Part shown: piece by piece, positions 27,963-63,402 of the stretch | Position numbering within the stretch: the first letter of the stretch is position 1 | Layout of the letters: the number at the start of each line of letters is the position of its first letter | Assembly (NCBI GenBank): GCA_051362555.1 | Contig: CM120649.1 | Span: forward strand, 12,772,001 to 12,836,000 | From: Lingula anatina | Lineage: Eukaryota; Animalia; Brachiopoda | Length of the DNA stretch: 64,000 nucleotides | Direction: 5' to 3' | Made by a program: the position numbers and the translations under genes | Notes under the pieces: generated by a model | Database searches by the model: none | What the model was told of the DNA's origin: nothing | Seen by the model: only the letters and a program-made list of their open reading frames with translations

Positions 27963-29828
27963 TCATGAACAATGCATATAGCGAAATATTTTCACCTGTC
28001 TTCCATTCTCCCCCACTACAAGCTGTCCTTTGTTATCAATGGCCACACCCGTTGGTACTGAAACGTGTTGTGGACCCACTACATATCTTAACAGTTGACC
28101 ATCTGGGGTCAGAACAACCACCCTGTTATTGTACTGGTCAGCAACGAAGATGTGACCCACGCTGTCTGTACACACTCCCCATGGAGAGTCCAGGTATCCA
28201 TCATCTGAGCCCATCTTCCCTGGTGTACCATACTGGAACACTACATCGCCCTGGGGGGTAACTCCATATACACAGTGTTCCTCAAAGTCGCTCACCACAA
28301 TGGTGTCACGGCATGGGAGCACTGCAATGTATCGTGGATCTTTACATATAGGAACACCGATCTTATTGATAAGATTGTACTGCACAGCATCATACACACA
28401 GATACATTTATCGGCCCTATCGCAGACAAGTATGTGTCCATTGTTGTCCACTGTAACACCCCAGGGCGTAGCCATGTCACCCTGACCAAACGTTTGGACA
28501 TGTTCCCCGGAGAAGGAATACACTCGACACCCATCATCACACGTAACCACCAGTCTGTCATCACTGAGCACGGTGACACCTCTGGGATCTGGTACTTCAA
28601 CCTCAAATATCACCTTATGAGCTGGTGATATTGCAGTTAGTTTACCTGGCTGGTTATAAACTAGATATATTGTCCCACTTTGACTGCATGATGTGCCCGA
28701 TAAATAACCAATGCTGCTATCAAACTCATTCACCAAAGATGCAGTATTTAGCCATTTATACTTCTTCACAAGAACAAAACATTTCACTGGAATTTTTTCT
28801 TCATTAGAAGTGATGTCTGTCGTTTTTGCCGGAAAAGAGGGTTTAAGTTTGCTCAGCTCTTTCATCCTAGCTTGGATATTTTTAGCGTGCATCATTACTT
28901 CCGTGTCGGAGCCATGTTGAACAAGCTGCTTGGCAAACTCGCATGTGCTGTGAATGGACAACTTCTGCAGTTGAACGCCATCTTTCTCAGCCTCGAGTGA
29001 TTTTACGAGCGTCGAGGCGTGGTCTTTTGCTTCCGCTATCAACTGTGCAGAAATACGCTGAACCTCTTCTATAATATCCGCCTCTTGTTGTTCTATGTCG
29101 GTCACCGTTTTGCTTACGTCGTCAAACGCAGCTTTCTGTTGCATGGATATTTCCGATTCTGCATTTTCAAACAGTGAAATGTTCTTAGACAGATCATGAA
29201 ATGCACTTTGTATTTTCTCTTTTTGCGTTTCTGCTATATCTGCAATGTCTACACAGTTGTGTTTGTTGTGTTTGGTGAGAATACAGTCACGACACACAAC
29301 AACATCGTCATCTGTGCAATAAAATTTCAACCGTTCTTCTTCGTGCTTATCGCAAAGTAATGTTACGCCCTTCATATCCTTGACATGCTTACTCAATTCA
29401 GATACTGCAATCATTGTGTGTCCCTGTAAAAAACCCATGGCGTCATGCTGTTTTTGTCGACAGTTCTCACAGAAAAAATGTTTGCAATTTTGACAGTAAA
29501 ATTGAGTAACTTGTGTGTGGCAGTTTCCACACATTTTGTCTTTACTTTCTTTTGTCAACATGTCCAACATTGTCCTCTTGGACAAAAAGAAGTTACGGAC
29601 AAGTTTATCCAGTCCACCTGGTGGAACAGGCGCCTCTTGGCGGCACACTGGACACGTAATGTTGCCTCTCGTCCCACTCACTGCCACGTGCTGGGCAACG
29701 CAAGCCAGGCAGAAAGTGTGATAGCATGGGAGGACACGCGGGTCGTCATACTCCTGATTACAGATGTGACACGTCAGAAAATTGTCACTGATGACTTTGT
29801 GGAACTTTTTGAATGCCATCACTGTCAT
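27963..29828 (-). CDS. TRIM-NHL E3 ubiquitin ligase copy 1 (RING-BB1-BB2-CC-NHL), intact
   Basis: 621-aa uninterrupted ORF; C3HC4 RING (CHIC...LPCYHTFCLAC...CPVC), two B-boxes, coiled coil, NHL repeats (PxGV..D..G.I.V.D..N.R). The start homologous to other copies is the second Met at 29819. Confidence 0.93.
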   Translation of the reverse strand: MTVMAFKKFHKVISDNFLTCHICNQEYDDPRVLPCYHTFCLACVAQHVAVSGTRGNITCPVCRQEAPVPPGGLDKLVRNFFLSKRTMLDMLTKESKDKMCGNCHTQVTQFYCQNCKHFFCENCRQKQHDAMGFLQGHTMIAVSELSKHVKDMKGVTLLCDKHEEERLKFYCTDDDVVVCRDCILTKHNKHNCVDIADIAETQKEKIQSAFHDLSKNISLFENAESEISMQQKAAFDDVSKTVTDIEQQEADIIEEVQRISAQLIAEAKDHASTLVKSLEAEKDGVQLQKLSIHSTCEFAKQLVQHGSDTEVMMHAKNIQARMKELSKLKPSFPAKTTDITSNEEKIPVKCFVLVKKYKWLNTASLVNEFDSSIGYLSGTSCSQSGTIYLVYNQPGKLTAISPAHKVIFEVEVPDPRGVTVLSDDRLVVTCDDGCRVYSFSGEHVQTFGQGDMATPWGVTVDNNGHILVCDRADKCICVYDAVQYNLINKIGVPICKDPRYIAVLPCRDTIVVSDFEEHCVYGVTPQGDVVFQYGTPGKMGSDDGYLDSPWGVCTDSVGHIFVADQYNNRVVVLTPDGQLLRYVVGPQHVSVPTGVAIDNKGQLVVGENGRQVKIFRYMHCS

Positions 29829-29829
29829 A

Positions 29830-31430
29830 AAAGACAGTTGGAATCAGTTTCGGTACTCAAATTTCTCCATGTGTCTGTAAAGTAGACTGTTACTACTTGA
29901 GCTGTTGAGTTCCTATTGGCATATGATATAGCCCATTACCTGATTGACTGATTTCTTTAATTTTCTTAGGGGTTATAAACGGTAAAATTCGAAAGCAATG
30001 TATATCAAGGCCCATATGATTCCTTGACTATGGGCCTTGTTATGATTAGATTCCGAGACCCAAAACTTCTAAGATGGCAGACGTGTTGGTTTCAAATGGC
30101 CTCATGTCCAAATCGATTTGGTACTTTGGTGAAATTCTACGTCACCTCATATTATGAAGATAATTACATCAAAAGTCAACAATCCATCCTTTTTGAAGAT
30201 TAATCAACAGTTTTGTGTAGACCAACGACGCGCCGTGTTCAAGTTGCTGTCTTATGTCGGTTGTGCATAAATTGATGATCGCGTCTGTCGTTCACCCTGG
30301 AGAACTCTACCAGGTGTAAATCAACCACTCAGGACTTCTCCATAGTAAAATTAATGCTTTTGTAATTATAAAAAACATCAATATAGATGTAACACAACAC
30401 AATGTCAAGTTGAGATCGAATCGTTAAGATCAATAACTTGATGTGTGCAATTATATTAAAAAAACATCATTATAGATGTAACAAAACACATTCCCAAGTT
30501 GAGGTCAATAATTCGATGTGTGCAATGAACCCAGGTTTTATGTTATAGGAAGTCAATACTGAAAATAAATAATTTTACCAGCATTAAAGGATTTTCTGAT
30601 GAAAACCAATATGCCGATATTTAGGAAGAAAACATACCTTGGAGAGTCTAACAAACGTGCCAGATGTCATAAATATCTTCATTGGGTCTAGGACATCAAA
30701 GTCATTCCGTTTTTTTTACATCAATAGCTGTAGCTTATGTTAGTCAAGCAAGTGTTCAAAATACATTTCAGCATCAATAGGTTCATTCACGTTCATCTAT
30801 CCATCTAAACATAAATGAATAATCTATTTGACTATTTGTTGTGGCTATTCCTATTAAATTATTTTTGTTAAGCGCATTTGCTATTACAACGAGTTGGAAT
30901 TGTCAAACACACGATTGATTACATTACCATATGACGTGAACGTGAATATTTTGAAAAATTGAAATTGGTCCACGCCATTCATGACCTTTAATGCATTATC
31001 AGGAATTTAGTTCAAACTGTGCATGGCTTCAGACAAATGTATGTTAGTCAGAAAATTCAAATAAAATACTGAAAATCGGACGTCCAAACAACAAACCCGT
31101 TTCGATCGAGTACCGGTAGAGTATAACTTGCTAAAGAACTCTCCCTTTCTCTCTGACACCAAAGTGATTTTTCGGTAAGTCATCAGTCGCAATCATTATA
31201 TTTTGAGTGCAGGTGGAATGTTCCAGACCTCATCGTGCAATCCCCCTCATTATCAAGACTAGGCACTGGAACTAAAATTCTATTTTTCAATATAAAAAGA
31301 TACGATCATTACACTAGATTATGTCAAAAGATCTGATGATAGAATGAAATATCCATCTATATTACACTGTAACTTAAAAGCATGCGTGTCAAGAGTGTAA
31401 AATATGCAAGTTCAACAATAATAATTGTTA
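29830..31430. repeat. Type-A upstream block (paralogs ~37220-38680 and ~40700-42770)
   Basis: Colinear shared sequence, e.g. gtccaaatcgatttggtactttggtgaaattcta and gcatggcttcagacaaatgtatgttagtcagaaaattcaaa. Confidence 0.85.
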
Positions 31431-32390
31431 ATTTCCCCTCCTCAATCATGATGGGAAAAAACTTCAACAAATGGTTCTAAATAACGACACAAGCCGATAT
31501 GGCTTGTCCATGAATTTACTAAACAGCGTAATTTACTCGTAGATTGCTATCGGAAGACCGCTAACGTTCTGTAATCGTTCGTGAAACCTTGGACATGAAA
31601 ATTATGTCCAAGGTGAAACGCACTGGCAATGTTGCAATGTCGATTATGCAAAGTCTTTTACTCGTTTTAAGCAGGTTTAGCAAAGCAAATACACTCTTGA
31701 CATTTTTGTACTGTGAGTATTTACGTTATTATGCAGCTGGTCTCCTACATGTATCCATACCGTCAAGAATATTAAACCTTTGTTGCCTAGGGTCTCACTG
31801 ACAGTCTGGGGCTTTTAAAATGTTTGCCTTAAACCTTGCACTAACTGTATACACTTGGACGTATATGAGAACACACCTCACTCGCCCCGATAGAGCCGGA
31901 GTCACCTGAGCTGAACGCCGCACTACGAGGCACTTGTTACATGTACAGAAGAGAATAAAAATGAACCAGTTTATTAATACAGGCTCTGATATTGTATTTA
32001 AAGTTACTCTATAGTCACCTGACTTTCTGATAACATTTTGTTCACGGACGTGTTTACTTCTCAGTATTAGGACAGGAGAATGTCAAGAATGAAGTAGTAA
32101 AGACCCCCCGGTTCTTATGGTTTTCACTGGAATTCACAAGCCTTTAACACCTTAAACATCTTTGCCAGGCAACAACAGGACGGACGACAGGTGAAACCAA
32201 ATTCACGTCATTTTTATATTCAACCAAACTTTAAATCAGATAACAGATTGCCTACTTGCATTGTATTATAAATACATGTATATAAAATAAAGGAAGAGTG
32301 CTTTGAATTTTCATATAATATTATACAAATTTAAAGCAAACAAATGTGGATAAGTGATGCTATGAAGAGAATCTGGCGATATGCACTTAC

Positions 32391-32481
32391 TTGAACACTA
32401 GAGGGAGTGTGTGAGAACACACTAGCCTGTCCTGATAGCCGGAGTCACCAGAGCTGTACGCCGTCCTACGAGGCACCTGTG
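32391..32481 (-). other. Candidate 91-nt spliced leader exon of TRIM copy 1
   Basis: Minus strand acceptor ttacttttcag| and donor CAA|gtaagt; similarity to nine other copies stops near these boundaries. Confidence 0.55.
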
Positions 32482-32910
32482 CTGAAAAGTAAATTACTTA
32501 CACTTTCACTATTTGCAGATAATTATAAAAACGGAATCAAATAAGTAAAAAGATAGGGATTTATTGATTGTAATTTAAATTTCTTTAAGAATCATGATGT
32601 GTAGAAATTGTTTTCATGGTAGGACAAGATAGAACATGTCAAAGTCACATATATTCGATATGATTGGCTAATTTCTCGATAGATTTGTAAAGCACGTGCA
32701 AACTAAAGGTGGATATGGTCCAAGCATGGGTAATTCACATAAAATTTTTGAAATTTGAAATTGAAAACAAGTCTCTTAGAAATTACTTAATAAGGACACA
32801 TTGACTGGTTTGCAAATTGAGAATGGAACGCTTATTAAAGTCATAATAACTCTTCATTTTGGCCAAAAATAGGATTTTCCTGGAGTAAACGGCAATTTTT
32901 CCGTACTTAC

Positions 32911-33300
32911 CAATGGTCAGCGACCCCATTCCTGCATTCAAAGTTAATCCAGGTTTTTTTTCCTAAACGTACGGTTTTTTGTTAAAATCTCTTAAGAGAT
33001 TTTAACTGACGGAGCTCTCTCTGACATCGCATAGTCACTGTTGACCTACTTAAAACCGCGGGAAAAGCAGACAACAACAACACTATATAAGATTCATGAG
33101 ATATATTCGTCTTTTTGTTAAAAATACATTAATATCCACAATGGTTGCCATTCTGGGCTTTTCGTTATCCGACGCACTGTACAAAAACTCGCAACTTACG
33201 TCTGCGTCCGCATTAATGCGTTTGGCGCCATATGTTATTTTGGTCTCGAATGAACGCGAGAATCCGCGTGACACCATTACGTCATTAGCAACGAATGCCT
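32911..33300 (-). promoter_or_regulatory. Candidate distal promoter and first exon upstream of TRIM copy 1
   Basis: Local CpG enrichment; E2F-like TTTTCCCGCG (33057-33066) and TTTGGCGC (33221-33228); CRE-like TTACGTCA (33277-33284); minus-strand donor TTG|gtaagt at 32911/32910. Confidence 0.45.
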
Positions 33301-33773
33301 TGATGAAAGCATCGAAAGCCCTATTGACAAGCACAGATTTTAGTTTTACTACAATAACGGCCGTTTTAGTGGTAAAATACAATAGAATATATTTCCATGC
33401 GTTGTTTACAATGTATTTCATGCGGAATTTTGAATCTCAAAGGAAGAGTTATTATTGCTTTAACTTAAAAACCAAGATAAGAATGACAAACCTAGACGAA
33501 ATATGAATTGCAAATACTGAAATGTGAACACAACGTTTTTTCTTACAAACTAAGGTATGAACACATGAATACTTTTTCCTTTCAGAAAACTAATTTTTCC
33601 AACACTGCGTATGGATGTCGTGTTTTGAGCGTATGGAAACGGCACACAACGGGAAAATATCCAAGACGTGTATAGTATTCGTTTTATGCTGCAGTATGCC
33701 CGATTCGCGTCCTTGTTACCTTAAAAGTTTTTTTTTTTTTTTTTACGAAAGGAAAGACTGCTAAGTAATCATT

Positions 33774-34966
33774 CCCAGCGGGCAAATTATGTTGTTTTAA
33801 CGTTGAAACAACGTTGAACCATAACGTTGATAAGATGTTGGATAAACGTTGGATTTGAAAGTTGTATCAACGTCACATAACAACATTGTATCAACCCCAG
33901 TTGTTAGACAACATTCTTGCATGAAAAGACATTAAAATGACCTGAAATGTTTTTATTTTTGGTACAAAACACAGGTACACAATTATACCGTACACTGTAA
34001 AAACATCCAAGTGCCTGCTTTGTCTGATTTTTTTCAACGCATTTAGCTCCTAAGCATGTTTTGCACCAAAGCATGGTACACCCTTTTAGCCTGGATGTGT
34101 TTAGCAGTAGGACATGTTTGATGGCTAAATATATGTAGGGTATATATGTATGACCTTTAAGTTAGGATTTCCAAGGTTTAGTTTTATATATATAGTTATA
34201 TTCTAGTTATATATATAAGAAAATAACTATATATGTAACAAAGTCACAGTCACCTCAACCTGTCTATCTATAACAGGGTACCGAGAACTGCCAACTTTGT
34301 TAAATTCACTCCATCACATTTACAGCCACTAAGGGTGCATTCCCAAAGATTTAGATCAATCCAGAGATTTAGATTTAGATCGACCTAACTCCCTGAGGGT
34401 TCGCGCTAAATTGCAGTCAGCCGAGCGCGCACCATAGTTAATTACCCCCTTACAGCTTTTAGTAGGTGGGACAGACGCTTAAGCCGGCTAACCTGACAGT
34501 AATCTAGTGAAACTCCCCACAGGGATAGATCGATCTAAAATCTATGGGAATAGGGTCTTATTCATCCTAATGTTAGCTGACCTTGCAAGGAAATTTATTG
34601 GAATGTATTTCTGAATAACAAGTTAAGAAAATTCACTAGTTCACTAAAGACACAAAACAACTGTCATTTTTACTTTAAAACACTTTTTAAAAATATTTTG
34701 ATAAAGTTAGTTACAGTATTAATAAACAAAGTATCACGTTTTCAATAGTTAATATTTTAAATTACAATCCATGTCTTGCATCATGACGACCAAACAACAA
34801 CGTTGAGTCAATGACCAAAATACAACATTGATTCAACGTCACATTATGACGGTGTTTTGACGTGGCTGGATCAACGTTGATTTTACGTTGAATTTAGGTA
34901 GATCAACGGCAATTCAACGTATCAACCTGTTTTCAACGTTGAATCAACGTCACTATGCCTGCTGGG
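33774..34966. mobile_element. Non-autonomous CMC/CACTA-like DNA transposon (1193 bp)
   Basis: TIRs CCCAGC(G/A)GGCA, many subterminal CAACGTTG-type repeats, ATT TSD confirmed by the empty site gtaatcATTaaaaatc at ~51951-51966. Confidence 0.85.
34333..34557. mobile_element. MITE family A, copy 3, nested in a CMC-like element
   Basis: Matches 21489-21689; TAA/TTA flanks. Confidence 0.8.
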
Positions 34967-35459: not shown

Positions 35460-37218
35460 TTAACTTGTAGTTACATAGCGAAATGTTTTCACCTTGCCTC
35501 CAATATCCCCCACTACAAGCTGTCCTTTGGTATCAATGGTAACGCACAGTGGTACGGAATCCTGTTGTCGACCCATCACGTATCTTAACAGTTGACCATC
35601 TGAGGTCAGAACAACCACCCTGTTATTGTACTGGTCAGCAATAAAGATGTGACCCACGCTGTCTGTACACACTCCCCAGGGGAAACGCAGGTATCTATCA
35701 CCTGAGCCGCTCTCACCTAGTGTACCGCACTGGAACACAACATCACCCTTGGGGGTCACTCCATATACACAGTGTTCATCAAAGGCACTCGCCACAATGG
35801 TGTCACGACATGGGAGTACTGCAATATATCGTGGAGCTTTACACATAGGAACAGTGATCTTATTGATAAGATTGTACTGCACAGCGTCATACACACAGAT
35901 GCATTTATTGTTCCTGTCACAGACAAGTATGTGTCCATCGTTGTCCACTGTAACACCATGGGGGTAGGACATGTCACCTTGACCAAATGTTTGGACATGT
36001 TCCCCGGAGGAAGAATAAACTCGGCATCCATCCCGGCATGTAACCACCAGTCTGTCATCACTGAGCACGGTGACACCTCTGGGATCTGGTACATCAACCT
36101 CAAATATCGCCTTATGAGATGGTGATATTGCAGTAAGTTTACCCGGCTGGTTATAAACTAGATATATTGTCCCACTTTGACTGCATGATATGTCCCATAT
36201 ATATCCAATGTTGCTATCAAACTCATTCACCAAAGATGCAATATTTAGCCATTTATACTTCTTCACAAGAACAAAACATTTCACTGGAATGTTTTCCTCA
36301 TTAGAAGTGCTGTCTTGCGTTTCTGCCTGAAAGGTGGGTTTAAGTTTTCTCAACTCTTTCATCCTAGCTTGGATACTTTTAGCGTGCATCATTACTTCCG
36401 TGTCGGAGCCATGTTGAACAAGCTGCTTGGCAAACTCGCATGTGCTGTGAATGGACACCTTCTGCAGTTGAACGCCATCTTTCTCAGCCTCAAGGGATTT
36501 TACGAGCGTCGTGGCGTGGTCTTTTGCTTCCGCTATGTACTGAGCAGAAATACGCTGAACCTCTTCTATAATATCCGCCTCTTGTTGTTCTATGTCGGTC
36601 ACCGTTTTGTTTACGCCGTCAATTGCAGCTTTCTGTTGCATGGATATTTCCGATTCTGCATTTTCAAACAGTGAAATGTTCTTAGATAGATTGTTAAAGG
36701 CGCTTTCTATTTCCTCTTTATGCGTTTCTGCTATATCTGCAATGTCTACACAATTGTGTTTGTTGTGTTTGGTGAGAATACAGTCACGACACACGACAAC
36801 ATCGTCATCTGTGCAATAAAATTTCAACCTTTCTTCTTCGTGCTTATCGCAAAGAAATGTTACGCCCTTCGTATCCTGGACATGCTTACTCAATTCAGAT
36901 ACTGCAATCATTGTGTGTCCCTGTAAAAAAACCATGGCGTCATGCTGTTTTTGTCGACAGTTCTCACAGAAAAAATGTTTGCAATTTTGACAGTAAAATT
37001 GAGTAACTTGTGCGTGGCAGTTTCCACACATTTTGTCTTTACTTTCTTTTGTCAACATTTGGACAAAAAGAAGTTACGGACAAGTTTCTCCAGTCCACCC
37101 GGTGGAACAGGCGCCTCTTGGCGGCACACTGGACACGTGATGTTGCCTCCCGTCCCACTCGCTGCCACGTGCCGGGCAACGCAAGCCAGGCAGAAAGTGT
37201 GATAGCATGGGAGGACAC
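35460..37218 (-). pseudogene. TRIM-NHL copy 2: RING destroyed; residual open ORF 37058-35460 (BB1-BB2-CC-NHL, 532 aa)
   Basis: Relative to copy 1, ~278 bp with splice acceptor, ATG and first half of RING are deleted at 37218/37219; a frameshifting deletion lies at 37058/37059; the rest is open. Confidence 0.82.
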
Positions 37219-39257: not shown

Positions 39258-40694
39258 TCATAGAACAAAGCGAAATGTTTTTAACTTTCCTTTCAACTCC
39301 CCCACTACAAGCTGCCCTTTGTTATCAATGGTAACACCCTGTGGTATAGAAACCTGTTCTCGACCCACCACGTATCTCAACAGTTGACCATCTGAGGTCA
39401 GAGCAACCACCCTGTTATTTCCCAGGTCAGCAATGAAGATGTGCCCCACGTTGTCTGTACACACTCCCCAGGGGTTCTTCAGGTATCCATCACCTAAGCC
39501 TTTCTCACCTGGTGTACCATACTGGAACACTACATCACCCTGGTGGGTCACTCCATATACACAGTGCCCACTCCAGTCACTCACCACAATGGTGTCACAT
39601 GGGAGCACTGTAATGTAATGTGGATATATACACATAGGAACACTGATCTTATTGATAAAACTGTACTGCACAGCGTCATACTCAAAGATACATTTATTGT
39701 TTTGGTCACAGACAAGTATGTTTCCATTGTTGTCCACTGTAACACCCCAGGGCGTAGACATGTCACCCTGACCAAATGTTTGGACATGTTTCCCGGAGGA
39801 GGAATAAACTCGGCATCCATCATCACATGTAACCACCAGTCTGTCATCACTGAGCACGGTGACACCCCTGGGATCTGGTACGTGTACCTCAAATTTCACC
39901 TCATGAAATGGTGATATTGCCTGTATTTTTTTCTAAGTGTCACAAACTACATAAACTGCCCCACTTTGGCTGCACGATAAGTCGAACAAATTATTCATAC
40001 TGCTGTGAAACTCACGCACCAGAGATGCAGTTTTTAGCCATTTTAACTTCTTCACGCGACCAAAGAAGTCTGCTGGAAGTTTTTCTTTACAAAAAGTGAT
40101 CTCTGTTGTTTTTGCCTGTACGGTGGGTTTAGCATTTTTGAATTCTTTCATCTTTGCTTGAATATTTTTACTGCATTTTATCACATCCACGTGGGAGCAA
40201 TGTTGGACAAGCTTTTTGGCATCCTCACATATGCTGTGAATGGATTCCTTCTGTTGGTGAACGCGATCTTTCTCAGCCTCGAGTGACTTAATTTGTGCTG
40301 CAGCGTGGTCTTTTGCTTCTGCTATTAACTGAGCAGAGGTACGCTTAACCTCTTCTATGATATCTGCCTCTTGTTGTTCTATGACAGTCACCGTTTTGTT
40401 TATGTCCTCATTTGTATCTTCCAGTTGCTTAGATATTTCCGACTCTGCATTTTCAAACAGTGAAATATTCGTTGATAAATAATTAAATGCGCATTTTATT
40501 TTCTCTCTATGCGTTTCTGCTTCATCTGCAATGTCTACACAATTGTGTTTGTTGTGTTTGGTGAGAATACAGTCACGACACACAGCAACATGGTCATCTG
40601 TGCAATAAAATTTCAATCGTTCCTCTTTATGCTTATCGCAAAATGGTGTTAAGTCCTTATCTTCCTGGGCTTGATTACTGGATTTGGATGTCAT
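39258..40694 (-). pseudogene. TRIM-NHL copy 3: in-frame loss of RING and B-box1, one premature TAG at 39933-39935
   Basis: MTSK joins SSNQAQEDKD (about 136 codons missing versus copy 4); ORFs 39933-40697 and 39258-39899 share one frame, separated by TAG where copies 5 and 6 have TCG. Confidence 0.88.
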
Positions 40695-41786: not shown

Positions 41787-41883
41787 ATGTCCAGCATTAA
41801 TGGGTTCATGCATGTTCATACGGTTTTTAGGTTCCTTGCGTCCGTCTACGACGTAGCTAGATCGCAGGGAAGAAATCAAGTAA

Positions 41884-43364: not shown

Positions 43365-45257
43365 TCAATGAACATAGCTAAATGTTTTCACCTGGCCTTT
43401 CAGCTCGCCCACTACAAGCTGTCCTTTGTTATCGGTGGTGACACACCGTGGTTTTGAAACCTGTTCTCGACCCACGATGCATCTCAACAATTGGCCATCT
43501 GAGGTCAGAACAACCACCCTATTATTCCCTGGGTCAGCAATGAAGATGTGCCCCAAGCTGTCTGTACATACCCCCGTGGGCTGGTCCAGGTATCCATCAC
43601 CTAAACCACTCTTCCCTGATGTACCATACTTGAACACTACATCGCTCTGTGGGGTCACTCCATATACACAGTGTCCAGCATAGTCACTCACCACAATGGT
43701 GTCACGACATGGGAGCACTGCAATGTATCGTGGATCTTCACACATAGGAACACCGATCTTATTAATAAGATTGTACTGCACAGCGTCATACACACAGATA
43801 CATTTATTGTTCTTGTCACAGACAAGTATGTGTCCATTGTTGTCCACTGTTACACCCTGGGGGTTAGACTTGTCACCCTGACCAAATGTTTGGACATGTT
43901 TCCCGGGGGAAGAATACACTCGGCATCCATCATCACATGTAACCACCAGTCTGTCATCACTGAGTACGGTGACGCCCCTGGGGTCTGGTACGTTGACCTG
44001 AAATATCACCTTATGAAATTTTGATATTGCCTTAAGTTTAACCATGCGAGTTTTACCAAGATTGCTTATACATAGATATATTGTCCCACTTTGGCTGCAC
44101 GAAATGTCCTGTAAACTGTCCTCACTGTCCCATAAATACCCAAATATGCTCCACGTTGAATCAAACTCACCCACCAAAGATGCAGTATTTAGCCATTTGT
44201 ACTTTTTCAAACGACCAAAAAGGTCCCGTGGAAGTTTTTCTTTAATAAAAGTTATGCCCGTTGTCTCTGCAGGTACGGGAGGTTCAACATTATTCAGTTC
44301 TTTTATCCTTGCTTGGATATTTTTAGCGTGAATCATCACCTCTGTGTGGGAGCCATATTGGACGAGCTGTTTGGCAAACTCACAAGTGCCGTGAATGGAT
44401 ACTTTCTGTAGTTCAAGGTTATCTTTCTCATCTTTGAGGGATTTCATGTAAGCTGCGGCGTGAGCTTTTGCTTCTGATGTCAACTGTCCACTAATTCGTC
44501 GAACCTCTTTTATAATATCCGTCTCTTGTTGCTGTATGTCGGCCAAAGATTTGTCATTGTCATCACTTGCATCCTTTTGTTGTTTAGATACTTGTAACTC
44601 TGCATTTTCTAACAGTGAAATTTTCTTAGATAGATCATTAAAGCCACTTTTAATTTTCTCTTTATGCGCTTTTGCAACATCTGCAACGTCTACACAATTG
44701 TGTTTGTTGTGTTTGGGGAGAATACAGTCACGACATACAACAACTTCGTCATCTGTGCAATAAAATTTCAACCGTTCTTCTTCATGCTTATCGCAAAATG
44801 GTGTTACGTCCTTTTCTTCCTGGGCTTCATTACCAAGTTCAGACACTGCAACCATCGTGTGTCCTTGTAGAAATTTTATGGCGTCATGCTGTTTTTGTCG
44901 ACAGTTCTCACAAAAAAAGTGTTTGCAATCCTGACAGTAAAATTGGGCAAGTTGTGATTGACAGTTCCCGCACATTTTGTCTTTACTCTCTGTTGTCAAC
45001 ATGAAGTCCTTCGCCTTTAACAAAAAGAAGTTACGAACAAGTTTCTCCAGTCCACCTGGTGGAACAGGCGCCTCATGGCGGCACACTGGACACGTGATGT
45101 TGTGTCCTGTCCCACTCGCTGCCACGTGTTGGGCAAGGCAAGCCAGGCAGAAAGAATGATAGCATGGGAGGACACGCGGGTCGTCATACTCGTGAAGACA
45201 GATGTGACACGTTAGAAAATTGTCACTGAAGCCTTCGTAGAACTTCTTTGATGCCAT
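43365..45257 (-). CDS. TRIM-NHL E3 ubiquitin ligase copy 4, intact
   Basis: 630-aa uninterrupted ORF, same domains, with in-frame insertions in the first NHL blade. Confidence 0.94.
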   Translation of the reverse strand: MASKKFYEGFSDNFLTCHICLHEYDDPRVLPCYHSFCLACLAQHVAASGTGHNITCPVCRHEAPVPPGGLEKLVRNFFLLKAKDFMLTTESKDKMCGNCQSQLAQFYCQDCKHFFCENCRQKQHDAIKFLQGHTMVAVSELGNEAQEEKDVTPFCDKHEEERLKFYCTDDEVVVCRDCILPKHNKHNCVDVADVAKAHKEKIKSGFNDLSKKISLLENAELQVSKQQKDASDDNDKSLADIQQQETDIIKEVRRISGQLTSEAKAHAAAYMKSLKDEKDNLELQKVSIHGTCEFAKQLVQYGSHTEVMIHAKNIQARIKELNNVEPPVPAETTGITFIKEKLPRDLFGRLKKYKWLNTASLVGEFDSTWSIFGYLWDSEDSLQDISCSQSGTIYLCISNLGKTRMVKLKAISKFHKVIFQVNVPDPRGVTVLSDDRLVVTCDDGCRVYSSPGKHVQTFGQGDKSNPQGVTVDNNGHILVCDKNNKCICVYDAVQYNLINKIGVPMCEDPRYIAVLPCRDTIVVSDYAGHCVYGVTPQSDVVFKYGTSGKSGLGDGYLDQPTGVCTDSLGHIFIADPGNNRVVVLTSDGQLLRCIVGREQVSKPRCVTTDNKGQLVVGELKGQVKTFSYVH

Positions 45258-45410: not shown

Positions 45411-45484
45411 TTTTACACGGTGACGAAATCGTGTGCCAGAGACGGTGAGGGTTGCGGGGGTAGCTTATTAAATCACCATCAATT

Positions 45485-47777: not shown

Positions 47778-47782
47778 AATAT

Positions 47783-52446: not shown

Positions 52447-54294
52447 TTAATGTACATAGCGAAATGTTTTCACCTTGCCTCCAAACTCCCCCACTACAAG
52501 CTGTTCTTTGTTATCAATGGTCACTCCCCATGGTATTGAAACCTGTTGTGGACCCACCACGTATCTCAACAGTTGACCATCTGAGGTCAGAACAACCACC
52601 CTTTTATTTCCCTGGTCAGCAATGAAGATGTGCCCCACGCTGTCTGTACACACTCCCCTAGGGTTCTTGAGGTATCTATCACCTAAGCCTTTCTCACCTG
52701 GTGTACCATACTGGAACACTACATCACCTTGGGGGGTCACTCCATATACACAGTGTTCAAGACAGTCACTCACCACAATGGTGTCACGACATGGGAGCAC
52801 TGCAATGTATTGTGGGGCTGTACACATAGGAACACTGATCTTATTGATAAGATTGTACTGCACAGCGTCATACACACAGATACATTTATTATGTTGGCCA
52901 CAGACAAGTATGTGTCCATTGTTATCCACTGTAACACCCCAGGGGTAAGCCATGTCACCCTGACCAAATGTTTTGACAAGTTCCCCGGATGAGGAATACA
53001 CTCGGCATCCGTGATCACATGTAACCACCAGTCTGTCATCACTGAGCACGGTGACACCCCTGGGCCCTGGTATGTCAACCTCAAATTTCACCTTATGAGA
53101 TGGTGATATTGCCTGGAGTTTTTTCGATTCGTTAGAAACTAAATATATCGTCCCACTTTGACTGCATGATATGTCCCATAAATATCCAATGCTGCTATCA
53201 CACTCATACACCAAAGATGCAGCATCCAGCCATTCTAACTTCTTCACGCGACCAAAAAAGTCCGCTGGAAGTTTTTCTTTATTAAAAGTGATCTTAGTTG
53301 TTCTTTCCGGTACTGAAGGTTTAACACTATTCAGTTCTTTCATCCTAGCTTGGATATTTTTTGCGTGTGTCATCACCTCCGTGAGGGAGCCATGTTGGAC
53401 AAGCTGTTTGGCGAACTCGCATGTACTTTGTATGAATACCCTCTGTAGTTGAATGCGGTCTTTTTCAGCCTCGAGGGATTTTAAACGAGCTTCAGTGAGG
53501 GCTTCTGCTTTTGCTATCAACTGATCAGAAATTCGCTGAACTTCTTTTGTTATGTACGCCCCTTGTTGTTGTATGTCTGTCACTGTCTTTTTTTTAACGT
53601 CAGTTGCATCTTTCTGTTGTTTGGATATTTCCGACTCTGCATTTTCAAACAGTGAAATGTTCTTAGATAGATCATGAAATGCACTTTGTATTTTCGCTTT
53701 ATGCGTTTCTGCTATATCTGCAATGTCTACACAATTGTGTTTGTTGTGTTTGGTGAGAATACAGTCACGACACACAACAACATCGTCATCTGTGCAATAA
53801 AATTTCAACCTTTCTTCTTTATGCTTATCGCAAAATGGTGTTACGTCCTTTTCTTCCTGGACTTGCTTACCAAGTTCAAACACTGAAATCATCTTGTGTC
53901 CTTGTAGAAATTTTATTGTGTCATGCTGTTTTTGTCGACAGTTCTCACAGAAAAAATGTTTGCAATTTTGACAGTAATATTGAGCAACTTGTGAGTGACA
54001 GTTTCCACACATTTTGTCTTTGCTTTCTGATGTCAACATGGAGCCCTTCACCTTGGACAAGAAGAAGTTACGGACAAGTTTCTCCAGTCCACCTGGTGGA
54101 ACAGGCGCCTCTTGGCGGCACACTGGACACGTGATGTTGCGTCCTGTCCCACTCGCTGCCACGTGCTTGGCAAGACAAGCCAGGCAGAAAGTATGATAGC
54201 ATGGGAGGACACGCGGGTCTTCATACTCGTGAAGACAGATGTGACACGTTAGAAAATTGTCACTGAAGCCTTCGTAGAACTTCTTTGATGCCAT
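52447..54294 (-). CDS. TRIM-NHL E3 ubiquitin ligase copy 5, intact
   Basis: 615-aa uninterrupted ORF, RING-BB1-BB2-CC-NHL. Confidence 0.94.
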   Translation of the reverse strand: MASKKFYEGFSDNFLTCHICLHEYEDPRVLPCYHTFCLACLAKHVAASGTGRNITCPVCRQEAPVPPGGLEKLVRNFFLSKVKGSMLTSESKDKMCGNCHSQVAQYYCQNCKHFFCENCRQKQHDTIKFLQGHKMISVFELGKQVQEEKDVTPFCDKHKEERLKFYCTDDDVVVCRDCILTKHNKHNCVDIADIAETHKAKIQSAFHDLSKNISLFENAESEISKQQKDATDVKKKTVTDIQQQGAYITKEVQRISDQLIAKAEALTEARLKSLEAEKDRIQLQRVFIQSTCEFAKQLVQHGSLTEVMTHAKNIQARMKELNSVKPSVPERTTKITFNKEKLPADFFGRVKKLEWLDAASLVYECDSSIGYLWDISCSQSGTIYLVSNESKKLQAISPSHKVKFEVDIPGPRGVTVLSDDRLVVTCDHGCRVYSSSGELVKTFGQGDMAYPWGVTVDNNGHILVCGQHNKCICVYDAVQYNLINKISVPMCTAPQYIAVLPCRDTIVVSDCLEHCVYGVTPQGDVVFQYGTPGEKGLGDRYLKNPRGVCTDSVGHIFIADQGNKRVVVLTSDGQLLRYVVGPQQVSIPWGVTIDNKEQLVVGEFGGKVKTFRYVH

Positions 54295-54384
54295 GACTCT
54301 AAGTTCAATTAGGTTTACACACAGCCAAAAGGCTGTACAAGAAGTCTCGTCACATCATGGTGTCGCGTTTTCGTGGCATTTTCT

Positions 54385-54443
54385 GTCTGACTGGACAGAG
54401 TAACACTGTTTCTTGTAATATACATGAACATCAGACCACGTCA
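54385..54443 (-). promoter_or_regulatory. Proximal promoter of TRIM copy 5
   Basis: Minus strand: TGACGTGG (54436-54443), weak TATATTA (~54416-54422), CCAGTC downstream. Confidence 0.5.
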
Positions 54444-55571
54444 TCTGACTGATAATATCCTCTGCCAAGGACGGTGAGGGTTGCAAGGGTAAACTACGCA
54501 CTGATGTCCGTTAAACCACTTTTCAATGGTATTGAATTTAGATCAACCCAGAACGGAGTCAGTCAACATTTTAAATGGGAGTCTGTTTGATTGGGAAATT
54601 TGCTTCCTAAATCATTTGTCTAGAAAATGAGGAATCGTTTTGTGGAATTTCAGCCATCTCGCAGTACTTTGTTACAGTCAGCAACTAAACATTTCTCAGC
54701 AAAACAAATCCTAATTTATAGAGGATCTCGTGCATCTTTTATTCTTTTGAGAATACCGTGTTCTTAATTGTATCGTGATCGTATTACCAACAACTATTAA
54801 AATCCAGGATTAACTATAAATCTAGTTCCAGTTTAAAAAGCTTCTTATTTACCGTATTATCCTATCGCCACCCTCCCTAGACCCATGGTTTGTTACAGAA
54901 TCACCTGATTTTATTAAATATTAACGTGTCCATGATTTATACCTGATAAGAGACATTATTTGATATAGGCAAGTGCAGCGCAGTTAAATTATTTGAGTTC
55001 TTTGTTTTAGGGCTCCGTCTGCTGTTCAGACAACCCTTCCCCTGACAACGTGTTCCTGGCTGTTTCGGTACGGTGTAGGTAGTTTTCCTTATCAACTTTA
55101 GATCTTTATACGTGTAACAATCGCACACGCGGAGGCACCCACACATGGTTTGATAAAGAAGTCCTGTTCATATATCTTTATCTTCATAACTTTCTATTTT
55201 CTCCCAGTAAAATTAGTAAGATAAAGACTGTTTTCGCGTCTCCCAACCTTGCAGACGTCATATATATAGTAATAGCAGGAGCAGCCGAAGTCTCATTTTC
55301 ACGTTTTTCCCAAACTACAACGATCTGTTGACAACTAACAGTGAAAGCAATACCTTACGGCAGTGGGAAGATAGTGGCCGTCGTTTGAATTTGATTGTAA
55401 CTGTTAAAATATATATTTTGAGGGCATTTTTGAGCATGTGTGACAGGTATCATATATTGCCAATAACACTACATCAGATAGCAAGATTTGCTAGCCCAGT
55501 GGTAACGTCTTTGGCTGCCAAACAGAAACAGTGGTTTCGATTCCCACTGAGTCCTGTTTGTTTAAATTTAT

Positions 55572-56419: not shown

Positions 56420-57179
56420 AATATTATTATTATAAATATACATTACTGAAGGCAGAGTAGGGAAGTTGGTATTGAAAATGCACAAAATCTTTGAATCAGG
56501 GCGAGTGTGGAAATAAGACGTTTACACAAAATATAATATTAAAAGAGATTCTATAAATCGTGTATACTAATCTCTTATCATATCCAATGATTGATGTAAT
56601 GGGTATCAGCTAGTCCATGGACGTTACATCAAGGTGGTGTGTTTTCATCTTCCAAGTGGCTTTCTAATAATAAAGTATAATGAACTAAAATATCATCGAC
56701 TTCCCTATAGATTACATCCCATGACGCAATGTCATGCATTTGCTCTTACAAGCAGCGTTTCGATTTTATTAAAATGTCGCAAAAGTACACTGTGCCAAAA
56801 TTGAGGACTGTACGATCGTCAAAAACTTTTATCCCATGGGCTTTATCAAATTTAAAGAACTGAGGTTTTTATGAATTTTTAATGTGTATCGAATCATTTG
56901 AACACTTACAAGTATATTTTAAGATTGTGCATCTCACGACTATTTGTTTTTATTGTAAAATCCAACTTTTTAAGTTGCAAATAAATACATATTATTATTA
57001 TTTTAAAAAAAAACCATGTAGTTCAATGAGCGAAAGAGATATTCCGATGTCATTTTCCTCCTTCCTTATTCTCGTAATTACGTTAAAGCATCACCATGAA
57101 GATTCTTATTTGCATTCAAGTACATGTATAATATCCAACTGATGGTATCACGTTAATTTTTTTTAATTGCGATGATTTA

Positions 57180-59010
57180 GTTTGTATTCTTATTTCAACA
57201 CATTCTAGATTGATCTTGCACTAACTGTACACTTGGGCGTACGTGGCAATACACCTCACTCGTCCTGATAGACGGAGTCACCTGAGCTGTACGCCGCACC
57301 ACGAGGCACTTGTTACAAGAGATAACAAAAATGGACCAGTTTATTAACCCCGGCGCTGACATCGTGTTTCAAGTTGCTCTATATTCACCCCGACTCTCTA
57401 ATAACAACTTTTTCAAGGACATGTTGTTTACTGCTCAATACCAGAACAGGACGTCGCCAATGATTAAGCTGTTATTACCTTCCCTCCCACAGATAACTAA
57501 CAGCTAATTTCAAGGGATTTTGGAACTTTCCAAATACCTTCAAACTAGTCTCTTTCATGCATGCAGTGCTTTTATATAACAAGATACAAAACATGAAAAA
57601 TATCAAATAGGTAAAAAGTTCAAAGTGAAAAATAAACACTGATAATTACCACCTGGATAATTGAGGAACTTTTCCTTTATCGTTCAAGTAAATATCACGG
57701 AAAATGACTGGAATTAATAAGAAAATAAACTGTATAGAGAGGATGGCGTTAAATGTGTGACTTAAATCCTGCAGTAACTGTACACTTAGGTGTACGTGAG
57801 AACACGCATCATTCGTCCTGATAGCCAGAGTCACCTGAGATGTACGCCCCACAACGAGGCACTTGTTACAAGAGATAGCAGAACTGGGCTAGTTTAGTAA
57901 CCCAGGCGCTGATTGTCTGTGAAGTAATTCTATAAAGGCACTCTGATAACATTTTGGTTTTTGCTCAATACTAGGATAGGAGAGTGTCAATAACTAGGCA
58001 GTTATTAACTTCCTCGCATGACACTACCAACTTACATGGGTTTTGTTATTTTTCAAATATTTTCAAACGATTTTCTTCAGTAAACACAATGGGCTTAAAA
58101 CTTTTCTATTACAAAATACAAAAAAAAGTAAATATCAAATAAATAAAAGGCTCAAGGTGAAAATTCACCACCTGGAATTTTACCACCTGGAATTTTAATT
58201 TATCGTCAAGGTAAAATATTATGGAAAGTGGCTGGAAATTAACAAGAAAATAAATTGTATAAAGGGGGTGGTGTTAACTGTGTGCCTTAAAACCTGCACT
58301 AACTGTACACTTGGGCGTACTTGAGAACACACCTCACTCATCCTGATAGCCGGAGTGACAAGGCACGAATAGCAGGAGATAGCAGAACTGGGCTAGTTTA
58401 TTAACCCGGGCACTGATCATTGTCTGTGAAGTTATTCTATATAGGCTCTCTGATAACATTTTGTTCAGGGACATGTTGTTAACTGCTCAATAGGATAGGA
58501 AAGTGTAAATTATTAAAAGCAGTTATTACTTTCCCCGGCCGCCACTTCCAATTTACACGGGTTTTGGTATTTTTCAAATATTTTCAAACGATTCTCTTCA
58601 ATGCACAATTTGCGCATAAAACTTGTATATGAAAAAAATACCCCCCCCCCCAATAAATAAATAAATAAAAATGAATAAATAAAAGGCTCAAGGTGAAAAA
58701 TAAGTGTCGGTGCTTACTACCAGGAATTTTAAGGAACTTTTCATCAATCGTCAAGGTAAAATATTATGGAAAGTGGCTGGATTTAACAAGAAAACAAATT
58801 GTATAAAGGGGATGGTGTTTAATGTATATCTTAAAACATGCACCAACTTGTACAGAAGAGGGCGTATATGAGAACACACCTCACTCGTCCTGATAGCTGG
58901 AATCACCTGAAATGTACGCCGCACAACGAGGCACTTGTTACAAGAGATAACAGAACTGGACTTGTTTGTTAACCCCAGTTCTGATTGTCTATGGAGATAC
59001 TCTATATACC
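57180..59010. repeat. Paralogous tandem array of four ~520-bp units
   Basis: Cores start at about 57217, 57770, 58295, 58839; unit 3 has the same internal deletion as unit 3 of the first array. Confidence 0.85.
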
Positions 59011-60884: not shown

Positions 60885-61438
60885 GAGCGGATTCTCAACG
60901 AATTGAGCCAGGCTTTACAAAGCCGGTGACCTAAAAATGGCGGACGTACATGAAAGAAAACCGCCTAATCTTTTATTAGTCTCTCCGCCTCCCCACACGT
61001 CGTCCCTGCGGGATACAGTAATTAAATCTCGGCTCCGTTCGCCATGCGGAAGCTACCTGAGAAATATTAAGTGCGCATGCTCATCAGTTAAACTCGTGGT
61101 GAAGAAAGCATGGCGGCTGAAGGCGTTCGAAGGAAAAAAGCTCTTCTGTTTTATTATCTGTCAAAACAGAGACGAAAAGGGAATGAATTGGCCCGTAGAG
61201 CAGCAACGAATCGACTATCTACGGAGATAATATCACCAGAGATATTCACAGAACTACCCAGCCCCAGTAAACGTAGTTGGAGGTTGGAGCCGAGATTTAA
61301 TTACTGTACCCCGCAGGGACGACGTGTGGGGAGGCGGAGAGACTATTAAAAGATTAGGCGGTTTTTCTTTCATGTACGTCCGCCATTTTTAGGTCACCGG
61401 CTTTGTAAAGCCTGGCTCAATTCGTTGAGAATCCGCTC
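60885..61438. mobile_element. Young Harbinger-like MITE with ~152-bp TIRs
   Basis: Arms 60885-61036 and 61286-61438 differ by 2 mismatches and 1 indel; ATA TSD; empty site ctgtcATAataaaa at ~52326 and ~35350. Confidence 0.92.
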
Positions 61439-61554
61439 ATAATAAAACAACTTGTCTTTTTGGTCCCAATCAATGATTTTCACGTAGTGCACCTGAAACA
61501 GTTCACTTCTTGAGTTGTCGCCTTGTAACGCCTCATATACTACTTAACTTGCAG

Positions 61555-63402
61555 TTAATGTACATAGCGAAATGTTTTCACCTTGCCTCCAATATCCCCC
61601 ACTACAAGCTGTCCTTTGGTATCAATGGTCATACACAGTGGTATAGAAACCTGTTGTCGATCCACCACGTATCTCAAAAGTTGACCATCTGAGGTCAGGA
61701 CAACCACCCTGTTATTGCATTGGTCAGCAATGAAAATGTGCCCCGCGCTGTCTGTACACACTCCCCAGGGGTTCTTCAGGTATCCATCACCTGAACCTTT
61801 CTCACCTGGTGTACCATACTGGAACACTACATCACCCCGGGGGGTCACTCCATAAAGCCATTGTCCATCATAGTTACTCACCACAATAATGTCACGGCAT
61901 GGGAGCACTGCAATGTATCGTGGATCTTTACAAATAGGAACACTGATCTTATTGATAAAACTGTACTGCACAGCGTCATACACACAGATACATTTATTGG
62001 TCCTATCACAGACAAATATGCGCCCATTGTTGTCCGCTGTAACACCCCAGGGTGTAGACATGTCACCCTGACCAAATGTTTGGACATGTTTCCAAGAGGA
62101 GGAATACACTTGGCATCCATCCTTACATGTAACCACCAGTCTGTCATCCTGGAGCACGGTGACACCCCTGGGGTCTGGTACATCAACCTGAAATATCACC
62201 TTATGAGATGGTGATATTGCCTGAAGTTTTTTCGATTTGTAAGAAACTAAACATATCGTCCCACTATGACTGCATGATATGTTCCATAAATATCCGATGC
62301 TGCTATCAAACTTATCCACTAAGGATGCAGCATCTAGCCATTCTAACTCCTTCACGCAACCAAAGAAGTCCGCAGGAAGTTTTTCTTTCCTAAAAGTGAT
62401 CGCGGTTGTTCTTTCCGGTACAGAAGGTTTAACACTGTTCAGTTCTTTCATCCTAGCTTGGATGTTTTTAGCGTGTGTCATAACCTCCGTGTGGGAGCCA
62501 TGTTTGACAAGGTGTTTGGCGAACTCGCAAGTACTTTGAATGGATACCCTCTGTAGTTGAATGCGGTCTTTCTCAGCCTCGAGGAATTTTAAACGAGCTT
62601 CAGTGAGGGCTTCTGCTTTTGCGGTCAACTGATCAGAAATTTGCTGAACTTCTTTTTTAATATACGCTCCTTGTTGTTGTATGTCGGCCACAGTCTTGTT
62701 TCTGTCGTAAGTCGCATCTTCCTGTTGTTTGGATATTTCCGACTCTGCATTTTCAAATAGTGAAATGTTCTTAGACAGATCATGAAATGCACTTTGTATT
62801 TTCTCTTTTTGCGTTTCTGCTATATCTGCAATGTCTACACAATTGTGTTTGTTGTGTTTGGTGAGAATACAGTCACGACACACAACAACATCGTCATCCG
62901 TGCAATAAAATTTCAACCGTTCTTCTTCATGCTTATCGCAAAATAATGTTACTCCCTTCATTTCCTGGACTTGCTTCCCAAAGTCAGACACTGACATCAT
63001 TGTGTGTCCCTGCAGAAATTTTATGGCGTCATGCTGTTTTTGTCGACAGTTCTCACAGAAAAAATGTTTGCAATCTTGACAGTAAAATTGAGCAACTTGT
63101 GAGTGACAGTTCCCACACAATTTGTCTTTACTTTCTGCTGTCAACATAAAGTCCTTCACCTTGGACAAAAAGAAGTTACGGACAAGATTCTCCAGTCCAC
63201 CTGGTGGAACAGGCGCCTCCTGGCGGCACACTGGGCACGTGATGTTGCGTCCTGTCCCACTCGCTGCCACGTGCTGGGCAAGACAAGCCAAGCAGAAAGT
63301 ATGATAGCATGGGAGGACACGCGGGTCTTTATACTCGTGAAGACAGATGTGACACGTTAGAAAATTGTCACTGAAGCCTTCGTAGAACTTCTTGGATGCC
63401 AT
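61555..63402 (-). CDS. TRIM-NHL E3 ubiquitin ligase copy 6, intact
   Basis: 615-aa uninterrupted ORF, RING-BB1-BB2-CC-NHL. Confidence 0.94.
   Translation of the reverse strand: MASKKFYEGFSDNFLTCHICLHEYKDPRVLPCYHTFCLACLAQHVAASGTGRNITCPVCRQEAPVPPGGLENLVRNFFLSKVKDFMLTAESKDKLCGNCHSQVAQFYCQDCKHFFCENCRQKQHDAIKFLQGHTMMSVSDFGKQVQEMKGVTLFCDKHEEERLKFYCTDDDVVVCRDCILTKHNKHNCVDIADIAETQKEKIQSAFHDLSKNISLFENAESEISKQQEDATYDRNKTVADIQQQGAYIKKEVQQISDQLTAKAEALTEARLKFLEAEKDRIQLQRVSIQSTCEFAKHLVKHGSHTEVMTHAKNIQARMKELNSVKPSVPERTTAITFRKEKLPADFFGCVKELEWLDAASLVDKFDSSIGYLWNISCSHSGTICLVSYKSKKLQAISPSHKVIFQVDVPDPRGVTVLQDDRLVVTCKDGCQVYSSSWKHVQTFGQGDMSTPWGVTADNNGRIFVCDRTNKCICVYDAVQYSFINKISVPICKDPRYIAVLPCRDIIVVSNYDGQWLYGVTPRGDVVFQYGTPGEKGSGDGYLKNPWGVCTDSAGHIFIADQCNNRVVVLTSDGQLLRYVVDRQQVSIPLCMTIDTKGQLVVGDIGGKVKTFRYVH

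What the first reader, a model, noticed from the sequence alone, without database searches (positions are those of the whole stretch)
27963..63402. Six-gene TRIM-NHL array with hypervariable ligand-face loops: candidate diversified intracellular immune receptor repertoire
Seen: RING, B-boxes and NHL strand cores are nearly constant, while two short windows per blade vary across copies 1-6. Around PxG: blade 3 ATPW/SYPH/STPW/SNPQ/AYPW/STPW; blade 4 KDPR/KAPR/IYPH/EDPR/TAPQ/KDPR; blade 5 DSPW/RFPW/KNPW/DQPT/KNPR/KNPW; blade 6 VPTG/VPLC/IPQG/KPRC/IPWG/IPLC. After strand b: DRAD/DRNN/DQNN/DKNN/GQHN/DRTN; DFEE/AFDE/DWSG/DYAG/DCLE/NYDG; QY/QY/LG/PG/QG/QC; ENGR/DIGG/ELKG/ELKG/EFGG/DIGG. Changes are chemically radical. 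Known: these loops form the top face that binds RNA in Brat and LIN-41/TRIM71, and TRIM56 with this architecture is antiviral. Inference: a constant E3 module on a diversifying recognition propeller, comparable to B30.2 loops of TRIM5.
Basis: partly seen in the sequence, partly recalled or inferred. Interest (0 to 1): 0.85.

Follow-up and report, generated by a model that had tools for sequence, protein, structure and literature searches.

The report
Lingula TRIM-NHL array, diversified ligand face
A brachiopod (Lingula) carries six tandem TRIM-NHL genes, four intact and two lacking the RING, whose differences pile up on the predicted ligand-binding face of the propeller, likely because selection keeps that face different while gene conversion evens out the rest, which would suit, but does not prove, an intracellular immune-receptor repertoire.

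Summary
The array is real: six intronless minus-strand RING/B-box/coiled-coil/NHL genes, closest to Lingula anatina proteins. Two corrections: copies 2 and 3 lack a whole RING (copy 3 also has a stop), and the coiled coil is as divergent as the NHL domain. Variation does concentrate on the ligand face. Thirty positions defined in advance from LIN41 RNA contacts hold 13 of 16 sites flagged by site models, and 21 of 30 carry three or more residues against 17 of 225 elsewhere. But plain dN/dS>1 is not secure: synonymous divergence is about 3-fold higher at those codons, and the test falls from p=3e-7 to p=0.07-0.63 once rate variation or multi-base changes are allowed. Recombination is significant. 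Toy simulations fit best when selection shields top-face residues from homogenising gene conversion; neutral models fail. The same positions are 3.4 times more variable between haplotype-level homologues. Immune function is untested: expression is low, no induction data, no interferon- or NF-kB-type promoter match, no LIN41-like basic patch. Verdict: new variant of a known kind (finTRIM/TRIM5 logic on an NHL propeller).

The parts
27963..29819 (-). Copy 1: intact intronless TRIM-NHL ORF, 618 aa (RING, B-box 1, B-box 2, coiled coil, six-blade NHL; no filamin)
   Evidence: homologues P0006 (94%) and P0040
35460..37058 (-). Copy 2: RING-less open frame of 532 aa from its own ATG (B-box 1, B-box 2, coiled coil, NHL)
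   Evidence: P0041 is a homologue with a whole RING, P0011 shares the broken RING start
37059..37218 (-). Copy 2 RING remnant (second half only), out of frame with the downstream ORF; about 275 nt present in copy 1 (29738-30012) are missing at its 5' side
39258..40694 (-). Copy 3: RING and B-box 1 lost in frame; B-box 2, coiled coil, NHL; stop codon at 39933-39935 in blade 1 in this haplotype
   Evidence: the 478-aa homologue P0008 (95%) is open at this place
43365..45257 (-). Copy 4: intact TRIM-NHL ORF, 630 aa, with insertions in blade-1 loops
   Evidence: P0005 differs at 2 of 615 columns
52447..54294 (-). Copy 5: intact TRIM-NHL ORF, 615 aa; its NHL domain was modelled (pLDDT 95)
   Evidence: no returned protein in the alignment is over 84% identical
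61555..63402 (-). Copy 6: intact TRIM-NHL ORF, 615 aa
   Evidence: P0001 is 96% identical, with 21 of its 22 NHL differences after residue 520 (blades 5-6)
61558..62328 (-). NHL propeller of copy 6 (reference numbering aa 359-615) with the 30 top-face codons: P-2, P-1, P+1 around aa 372, 411, 451, 494, 545, 588 and D+1, D+2 after aa 387, 426, 466, 510, 560, 603
   Evidence: strand boundaries
62329..62817 (-). Coiled coil and linker of copy 6 (aa 196-358): second island of deep divergence between copies (dS about 0.4-0.5)

Best explanation
This is a Lingula tandem family of filamin-less TRIM-NHL proteins, predicted to be E3 ubiquitin ligases, in which gene conversion likely homogenises the RING/B-box and propeller framework while selection likely keeps the ligand-face codons different, giving each copy what would be a distinct binding surface, most likely for fast-changing foreign ligands inside the cell. 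Shown: architecture, fold, concentration of variation on the LIN41-equivalent face, recombination, raised synonymous divergence at and beside those codons, and excess variation there between haplotype-level homologues. Inferred: coiled-coil dimers present two propellers, the top face binds a target (protein more likely than RNA, since no constant basic patch is kept), and the RING ubiquitylates it or signals. RING-less copies would act as adaptors, decoys or conversion donors. Odds: selection on the face about 0.8; immune role given that about 0.6.
For: Pfam RING, B-box and NHL in the four intact copies, no filamin family listed. NHL model pLDDT 95, best folds TRIM3/TRIM2 NHL, TM 0.85-0.88. 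13 of 16 M8 sites with posterior over 0.5, and 6 of 6 over 0.9, fall in 30 of 255 pre-defined codons (p=2e-11); opposite-face turns have omega 0.42. PHI-type recombination test p=0.002; per-blade trees differ. Synonymous divergence: top 0.69, within two codons 0.37, far 0.19; amino-acid-invariant columns near the top sites have 0.58 against 0.31 synonymous changes (p=0.007). Simulations: relaxed or neutral-conversion models reach the observed top-face divergence in 0 of 60 runs in each of four settings; full protection from conversion with tracts of 15-60 nt reaches it in 55-59 of 60 and the near/far ratio in 19-27 of 60. Haplotype-level homologues: 32 of 180 top gene-columns vary against 70 of 1358 in the rest of NHL and 58 of 977 in the coiled coil and linker. 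In the two sister pairs top dN is 2.1 times coiled-coil dS (95% 1.15-3.9). Divergence peaks under conversion as a sign of selection, and pseudogenes kept as donors in MHC and R-gene clusters: PMC3924837 (passages).
Against: The positive-selection test is not robust: p=0.07 with synonymous rate variation, 0.08 with multi-base changes, 0.63 with both. With a free synonymous rate top-face omega is 1.03 (profile range about 0.6-2). Over the 13 deep pairs top dN is only 0.95 times coiled-coil dS. The protection model under-predicts synonymous divergence at the top codons (reached in 1-8 of 60) and its settings were hand-tuned. No ligand, induction or tissue data. RNA depth on copies 1-4 is low (about 0.3-1.2 reads per kb per million in one run, near zero in two) and may include paralog reads. 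No ISRE-like or kB-like match within 1 kb upstream of any start. Two of six copies are damaged and framework omega is about 0.5, as expected of relaxed duplicates too.
Confidence: 0.5

Rival explanations
1. Same selection on the ligand face, but the ligands are the host's own or genomic parasites: paralogs specialised on different RNAs or proteins, as Brat, Mei-P26 and LIN41 do, or in conflict with transposons or selfish elements in the germline.
For: The varying positions are the RNA-contact positions of LIN41. 11 of 15 Brat RNA-binding residues are not kept in Mei-P26 (PMC9070667, passage), so NHL paralogs are known to change this face without an immune role. No immune-type promoter match.
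Against: Excess variation between haplotype-level homologues, and broken and whole forms of the same copy, fit a moving target better than fixed developmental roles. Top faces have 3-7 basic and 2-6 acidic residues of 30, against 8 basic and 1 acidic of 14 contacts in LIN41.
Confidence: 0.2
2. Classical recurrent positive selection (omega about 4-6 at some 7% of NHL codons) on a simple duplication tree, with conversion a side effect.
For: M1a/M2a 2dL=29.8, M8a/M8 2dL=29.9 in NHL, not significant outside it (p=0.14); still 2dL=20.9 with a tree per blade and 22-27 for the fixed top-face class with the four intact copies only.
Against: It predicts no rise in synonymous divergence: 0 of 45 refitted simulations reach the observed 3.1-fold rate and 4 of 300 the 4-fold-site value; 0 of 60 reach the near/far ratio. 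A neutral model with multi-base changes fits about 26 log units better than M2a. Selection on multi-base mutations could rescue it in part; not simulated.
Confidence: 0.15
3. Neutral birth and death: redundant duplicates with relaxed surface loops; mismatches block conversion locally and so preserve themselves.
For: Two of six copies broken; low expression; omega 0.4-0.6 in every domain; free-rate top omega about 1. The broad coiled-coil island may well be of this kind.
Against: Relaxed models give 66-73% top-face identity against 40% observed (0 of 60 runs in each of four settings). Four mismatch-barrier settings give the near/far ratio in 0-1 of 60 runs, and where they match the top they lose the framework identity. 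Opposite-face turns stay conserved, although they are structurally tighter and so an imperfect control.
Confidence: 0.12

Closest known systems
TRIM-NHL proteins (class VII / subfamily C: TRIM2, TRIM3, TRIM32, TRIM56, TRIM71/LIN41, Brat, Mei-P26, Thin)
   Same: RING, two B-boxes, coiled coil, six-blade NHL; fold matches TRIM3/TRIM2/Thin/TRIM71 NHL; subfamily list in PMC3503706 (passages).
   Different: Only 20-26% identical to the closest solved NHL domains; no filamin domain; intronless tandem expansion; ligand face hypervariable rather than conserved; no constant basic patch.
Teleost finTRIMs and primate TRIM5-alpha (B30.2/SPRY)
   Same: Clustered, lineage-specific TRIMs with near-identical RING/B-box and a diversifying C-terminal recognition domain (PMC2657112, abstract).
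   Different: Recognition domain is an NHL propeller, not B30.2; virus induction was shown for finTRIMs and is not shown here; omega above 1 is not secure here.
TRIM56
   Same: RING/B-box/coiled coil/NHL-like layout; its NHL-like domain binds viral RNA and proteins (PMC11768893, passages).
   Different: No TRIM56 chain is among the 41 PDB sequence hits or the listed fold hits; 'TRIM56-like' is one of several source labels on these Lingula proteins; orthology not tested.
Conversion-plus-selection gene clusters (MHC, plant R genes, red/green opsins)
   Same: Divergence peaks at ligand-determining sites in a converting cluster, with broken copies as possible donors (PMC3924837, passages).
   Different: Here the peaks are single codons repeated in each propeller blade of an intracellular E3; no population test yet.
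Mussel dispensable B-box / six-bladed propeller genes
   Same: B-box (1133 in genome) and six-bladed TolB-like propeller (1410) domains are enriched among presence-absence genes (PMC7653742, supplementary Table S52 rows).
   Different: Reported only as domain enrichment; neither term occurs in the main text; whether these are the same kind of protein was not tested.

Membership tests
TRIM-NHL (class VII) | N-terminal C3HC4 RING | tested here: met
   PF00097 above cut-off in copies 1, 4, 5, 6; absent from the open frames of copies 2 and 3
TRIM-NHL (class VII) | One or two B-boxes followed by a coiled coil | tested here: met
   PF00643 in all six copies, two stretches in five. The coiled coil is assigned from position and sequence; it was not modelled.
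TRIM-NHL (class VII) | C-terminal six-blade NHL propeller | tested here: met
   PF01436; model pLDDT 95, TM 0.85-0.88 to TRIM2/3 NHL
TRIM-NHL (class VII) | E3 ligase activity | not testable with these tools
   Zinc ligands are present in the alignment; no assay
TRIM2/TRIM3/TRIM71 orthologue | Filamin domain before NHL | tested here: not met
   PF00630 not listed for any copy but listed for other hits such as P0028
LIN41/Brat-type RNA-binding NHL | Conserved basic top-face patch | tested here: not met
   3-7 K/R and 2-6 D/E of 30 positions, differing by copy; surface potential not computed
TRIM56 orthologue | Closest relative by sequence or tree | tested here: inconclusive
   Not among PDB hits; no tree with TRIM56 was built
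finTRIM/TRIM5-type antiviral repertoire | B30.2/SPRY recognition domain | tested here: not met
   NHL instead; works-like claim only
finTRIM/TRIM5-type antiviral repertoire | Positive selection concentrated on the binding face | tested here: inconclusive
   Concentration met; omega above 1 depends on the model
finTRIM/TRIM5-type antiviral repertoire | Induction by, or restriction of, a pathogen | not testable with these tools
   No challenge data; low RNA depth in three runs

The most novel reading that the evidence does not exclude
The NHL propeller is a germline-encoded variable receptor module of invertebrate cell-autonomous immunity: about 25 top-face residues act like CDRs, MHC-style gene conversion shuffles them between loci and haplotypes, RING-less copies serve as donors or decoys, and the divergent coiled coils keep dimers copy-specific. 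The large, uncharacterised B-box/six-bladed-propeller families of molluscs would be the same system, the invertebrate counterpart of B30.2 TRIMs.
Probability: 0.3. Interest if true: 0.8.

Novelty: new variant of a known kind. Interest (0 to 1): 0.58.

Why it matters
Diversifying TRIM receptors are known from vertebrates, where the variable part is B30.2. Here a different domain, usually treated as a conserved RNA reader, shows codon-scale diversification on its binding face in a brachiopod. It names 30 residues and a few near-identical paralogs for direct ligand-swap tests, and offers a testable reading of large unexplained B-box/propeller expansions in molluscs. It also shows that standard dN/dS tests mislead in converting arrays. 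Ten library searches listed no paper whose title or abstract start describes a diversified NHL face or this Lingula family; the Lingula genome paper and its supplement do not contain 'NHL' or 'tripartite'. Most subscription papers are not held, including a Lingula immune-gene survey that I recall but did not see.

Tried and rejected
No genome is held, so the total family size and DNA of other paralogs are unknown; haplotype comparisons are protein-level only and some 'alleles' may be recent paralogs or draft-assembly duplicates. PAML and HyPhy are absent; all codon models are my own GY94/F3x4 code with naive empirical Bayes, on six sequences; a first run timed out. The run search listed no RNA holder; three raw RNA runs were laid on copies 1-4 only. 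Left open: expression of copies 5 and 6, and whether copy 3's stop is present in transcripts or other individuals. GC at 4-fold sites gives no sign of GC-biased conversion (NHL 0.44, coiled coil 0.45). The viral fold search gave only generic propellers, 18% identity or less. Earlier findings: none. PMC8195603 and PMC9334734 (passages) hold nothing on this family; one paper was not held. Rejected: assembly artefact for copy 2's and copy 3's RING loss, since P0011 and P0008 show the same starts. No complex prediction was run.
Full report
WHAT IS THERE. Six paralogous, intronless genes lie head to tail on the minus strand between 27963 and 63402, tail to tail with a multi-exon RhoGEF-type gene. 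Copies 1, 4, 5 and 6 are whole (615-630 aa) with RING, two B-boxes and NHL repeats, and no filamin family is listed. Copy 2 has lost about 275 nt holding its start and half the RING, and is out of frame before an ATG that opens a 532-aa RING-less frame. Copy 3 has lost RING and B-box 1 in frame and carries a stop in blade 1. Of 38 database hits, 31 are named Lingula anatina; the other 7 are 29% identical or less. Copy 4 differs from P0005 at 2 of 615 columns, so the window is Lingula, from a haplotype other than the annotated ones. A full HMMER scan put Lingula proteins first; of 10 further hits looked up, 4 were named Lingula, 1 Owenia (29%) and 5 unnamed.

FOLD AND FACE. The NHL domain of copy 5 models as a six-blade propeller (pLDDT 95) closest to TRIM3 and TRIM2 NHL (TM 0.85-0.88). 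To avoid picking sites because they vary, I took the 14 RNA-contact residues of zebrafish LIN41 from PMC5908797 (passages) and placed them in the repeat using the PDB alignment. All 14 fall at five positions: two before and one after the repeat's proline, and the two after the aspartate that ends strand b. That gives 30 codons of 255. In the six copies 21 of the 30 carry three or more residues against 17 of 225 (p=7e-14); identity among intact copies is 39% against 81%. Among ten paralogs (six here, four from the database) entropy is 1.72 bits against 0.38, and any two differ at 12-25 of 30 positions. Exchanges are more radical.

IS IT POSITIVE SELECTION? Standard site models say yes for NHL (M1a/M2a 2dL 29.8; M8a/M8 29.9; omega about 6 on 7%) and not for the rest (p=0.14). 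13 of 16 flagged sites are top-face codons, and the signal survives a tree per blade. It does not survive more realistic models: p=0.07 with synonymous rate variation, 0.08 with multi-base changes, 0.63 with both. The reason is that silent divergence is uneven: dS 0.69 at the top codons, 0.37 within two codons, 0.19 further off, 0.52 in the coiled coil, 0.17 in B-box 2. Alignable non-coding flanks and spacer repeats show 0.08-0.27. With its own silent rate the top face has omega 1.03 and a 3.1-fold rate, preferred by 2dL 12.4. This is not an artefact of true positive selection: 0 of 45 refitted simulations reach that rate. Amino-acid-invariant neighbours also carry more silent change (0.58 against 0.31 per column, 31 and 101 columns, p=0.007).

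MECHANISM. Recombination among copies is significant (p=0.002), trees change along the gene, and copies 2 and 6 share blade 6 (93%) while being 60% alike in the linker. In toy forward simulations (60 runs per setting), relaxed loops with or without neutral conversion never reach the observed top-face divergence. Positive selection without conversion reaches it but never the near/far silent ratio. Mismatch barriers reach that ratio in 0-1 runs. Full protection of top-face residues from conversion reaches both (55-59 and, by tract length, 9-27 of 60), though it under-predicts silent change at the top codons (2-8 of 60). This is the 'peak of divergence' pattern described in PMC3924837 (passages) and PMC3728101 (abstract). 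Top dN equals coiled-coil dS over deep pairs (ratio 0.95) but is about twice it in the two sister pairs (2.07, 95% 1.15-3.92), so the face is both old and still changing. The coiled coil is a second, broad island; whether selection for copy-specific dimers or a plain mismatch barrier keeps it is untested.

HAPLOTYPES. Annotated homologues occur in runs of adjacent accessions on three scaffolds. Within six homologue groups 32 of 180 top gene-columns vary, against 70 of 1358 in the rest of NHL and 58 of 977 in coiled coil and linker; without the copy-6 group, 24 of 150 against 56 of 1131. The same blade-3 position differs within the homologue groups of copies 1, 2 and 3, each time towards the residue fixed in copy 4. 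Copy 6 and P0001 are near-identical up to blade 4 and differ as a block after it. Copy 2 exists with a whole RING (P0041) and with the same break (P0011); copy 3's homologue P0008 is open. No returned protein in the alignment is over 84% identical to copy 5. These point to a repertoire that differs between haplotypes (inference; draft assembly, protein level only).

FUNCTION. Inferred from TRIM biology (own knowledge): a coiled-coil dimer presents two propellers and the RING ubiquitylates what they bind. The faces hold 3-7 basic and 2-6 acidic residues and 3-7 aromatics of 30, unlike the basic LIN41 cavity, so protein or mixed ligands are more likely than one RNA motif. For immunity: the finTRIM parallel (PMC2657112, abstract), the antiviral NHL-like domain of TRIM56 (PMC11768893, passages), haplotype turnover, and enrichment of B-box and six-bladed propeller domains among mussel dispensable genes (PMC7653742 supplement rows). 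Against or missing: RNA depth on copies 1-4 is low in one run and near zero in two (6-25% of each run read, 93% likeness, paralog reads possible); no ISRE-like or kB-like match lies near any start (patterns recalled); no ligand or challenge data; no sign of special closeness to TRIM56.

VERDICT. Observation partly confirmed, interpretation partly supported. A member of the TRIM-NHL class that works, most likely, like finTRIM/TRIM5 but with an NHL face diversified under gene conversion. New variant of a known kind; interest 0.58.

Noticed in passing
window 66-22706 (+): Exons of a multi-exon RhoGEF-type gene (CRAL/TRIO, spectrin, DBS-like spectrin, PH and SH3 matches), tail to tail with the array.
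   Followed up: partly
window 60885-61438: About 550-bp element with 153-bp, 98% identical terminal inverted repeats just 3' of copy 6; MITE-like.
   Followed up: no
window 46500-49136 and 57174-59008: Arrays of degenerate units of roughly 500-550 bp in the spacers between copies 4-5 and 5-6, with a related piece near 31818-32480; possible substrates for unequal crossover.
   Followed up: no
window 32476-34863 and 41431-42027: High-copy repeats: contig depth 1e4-5e5 in run X1; most RNA reads laid on the stretch fall here and fit only in part. A 190-230 bp member recurs at 626-856 and 21505-21692.
   Followed up: no
window 29820-30300, 37219-37500, 40695-41180 versus 45258-45500, 54295-54540, 63403-63660: Copies 1-3 share one upstream sequence type and copies 4-6 another; the latter has a CRE-like hexamer 120-150 nt upstream of the start in all three (window-wide count not above chance).
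   Followed up: partly
window 62329-62817 and equivalents: The coiled coil and linker show two to three times the synonymous divergence of RING, B-box 2 and NHL framework, falling into four old lineages (copies 1/2, 3, 4, 5/6).
   Followed up: partly
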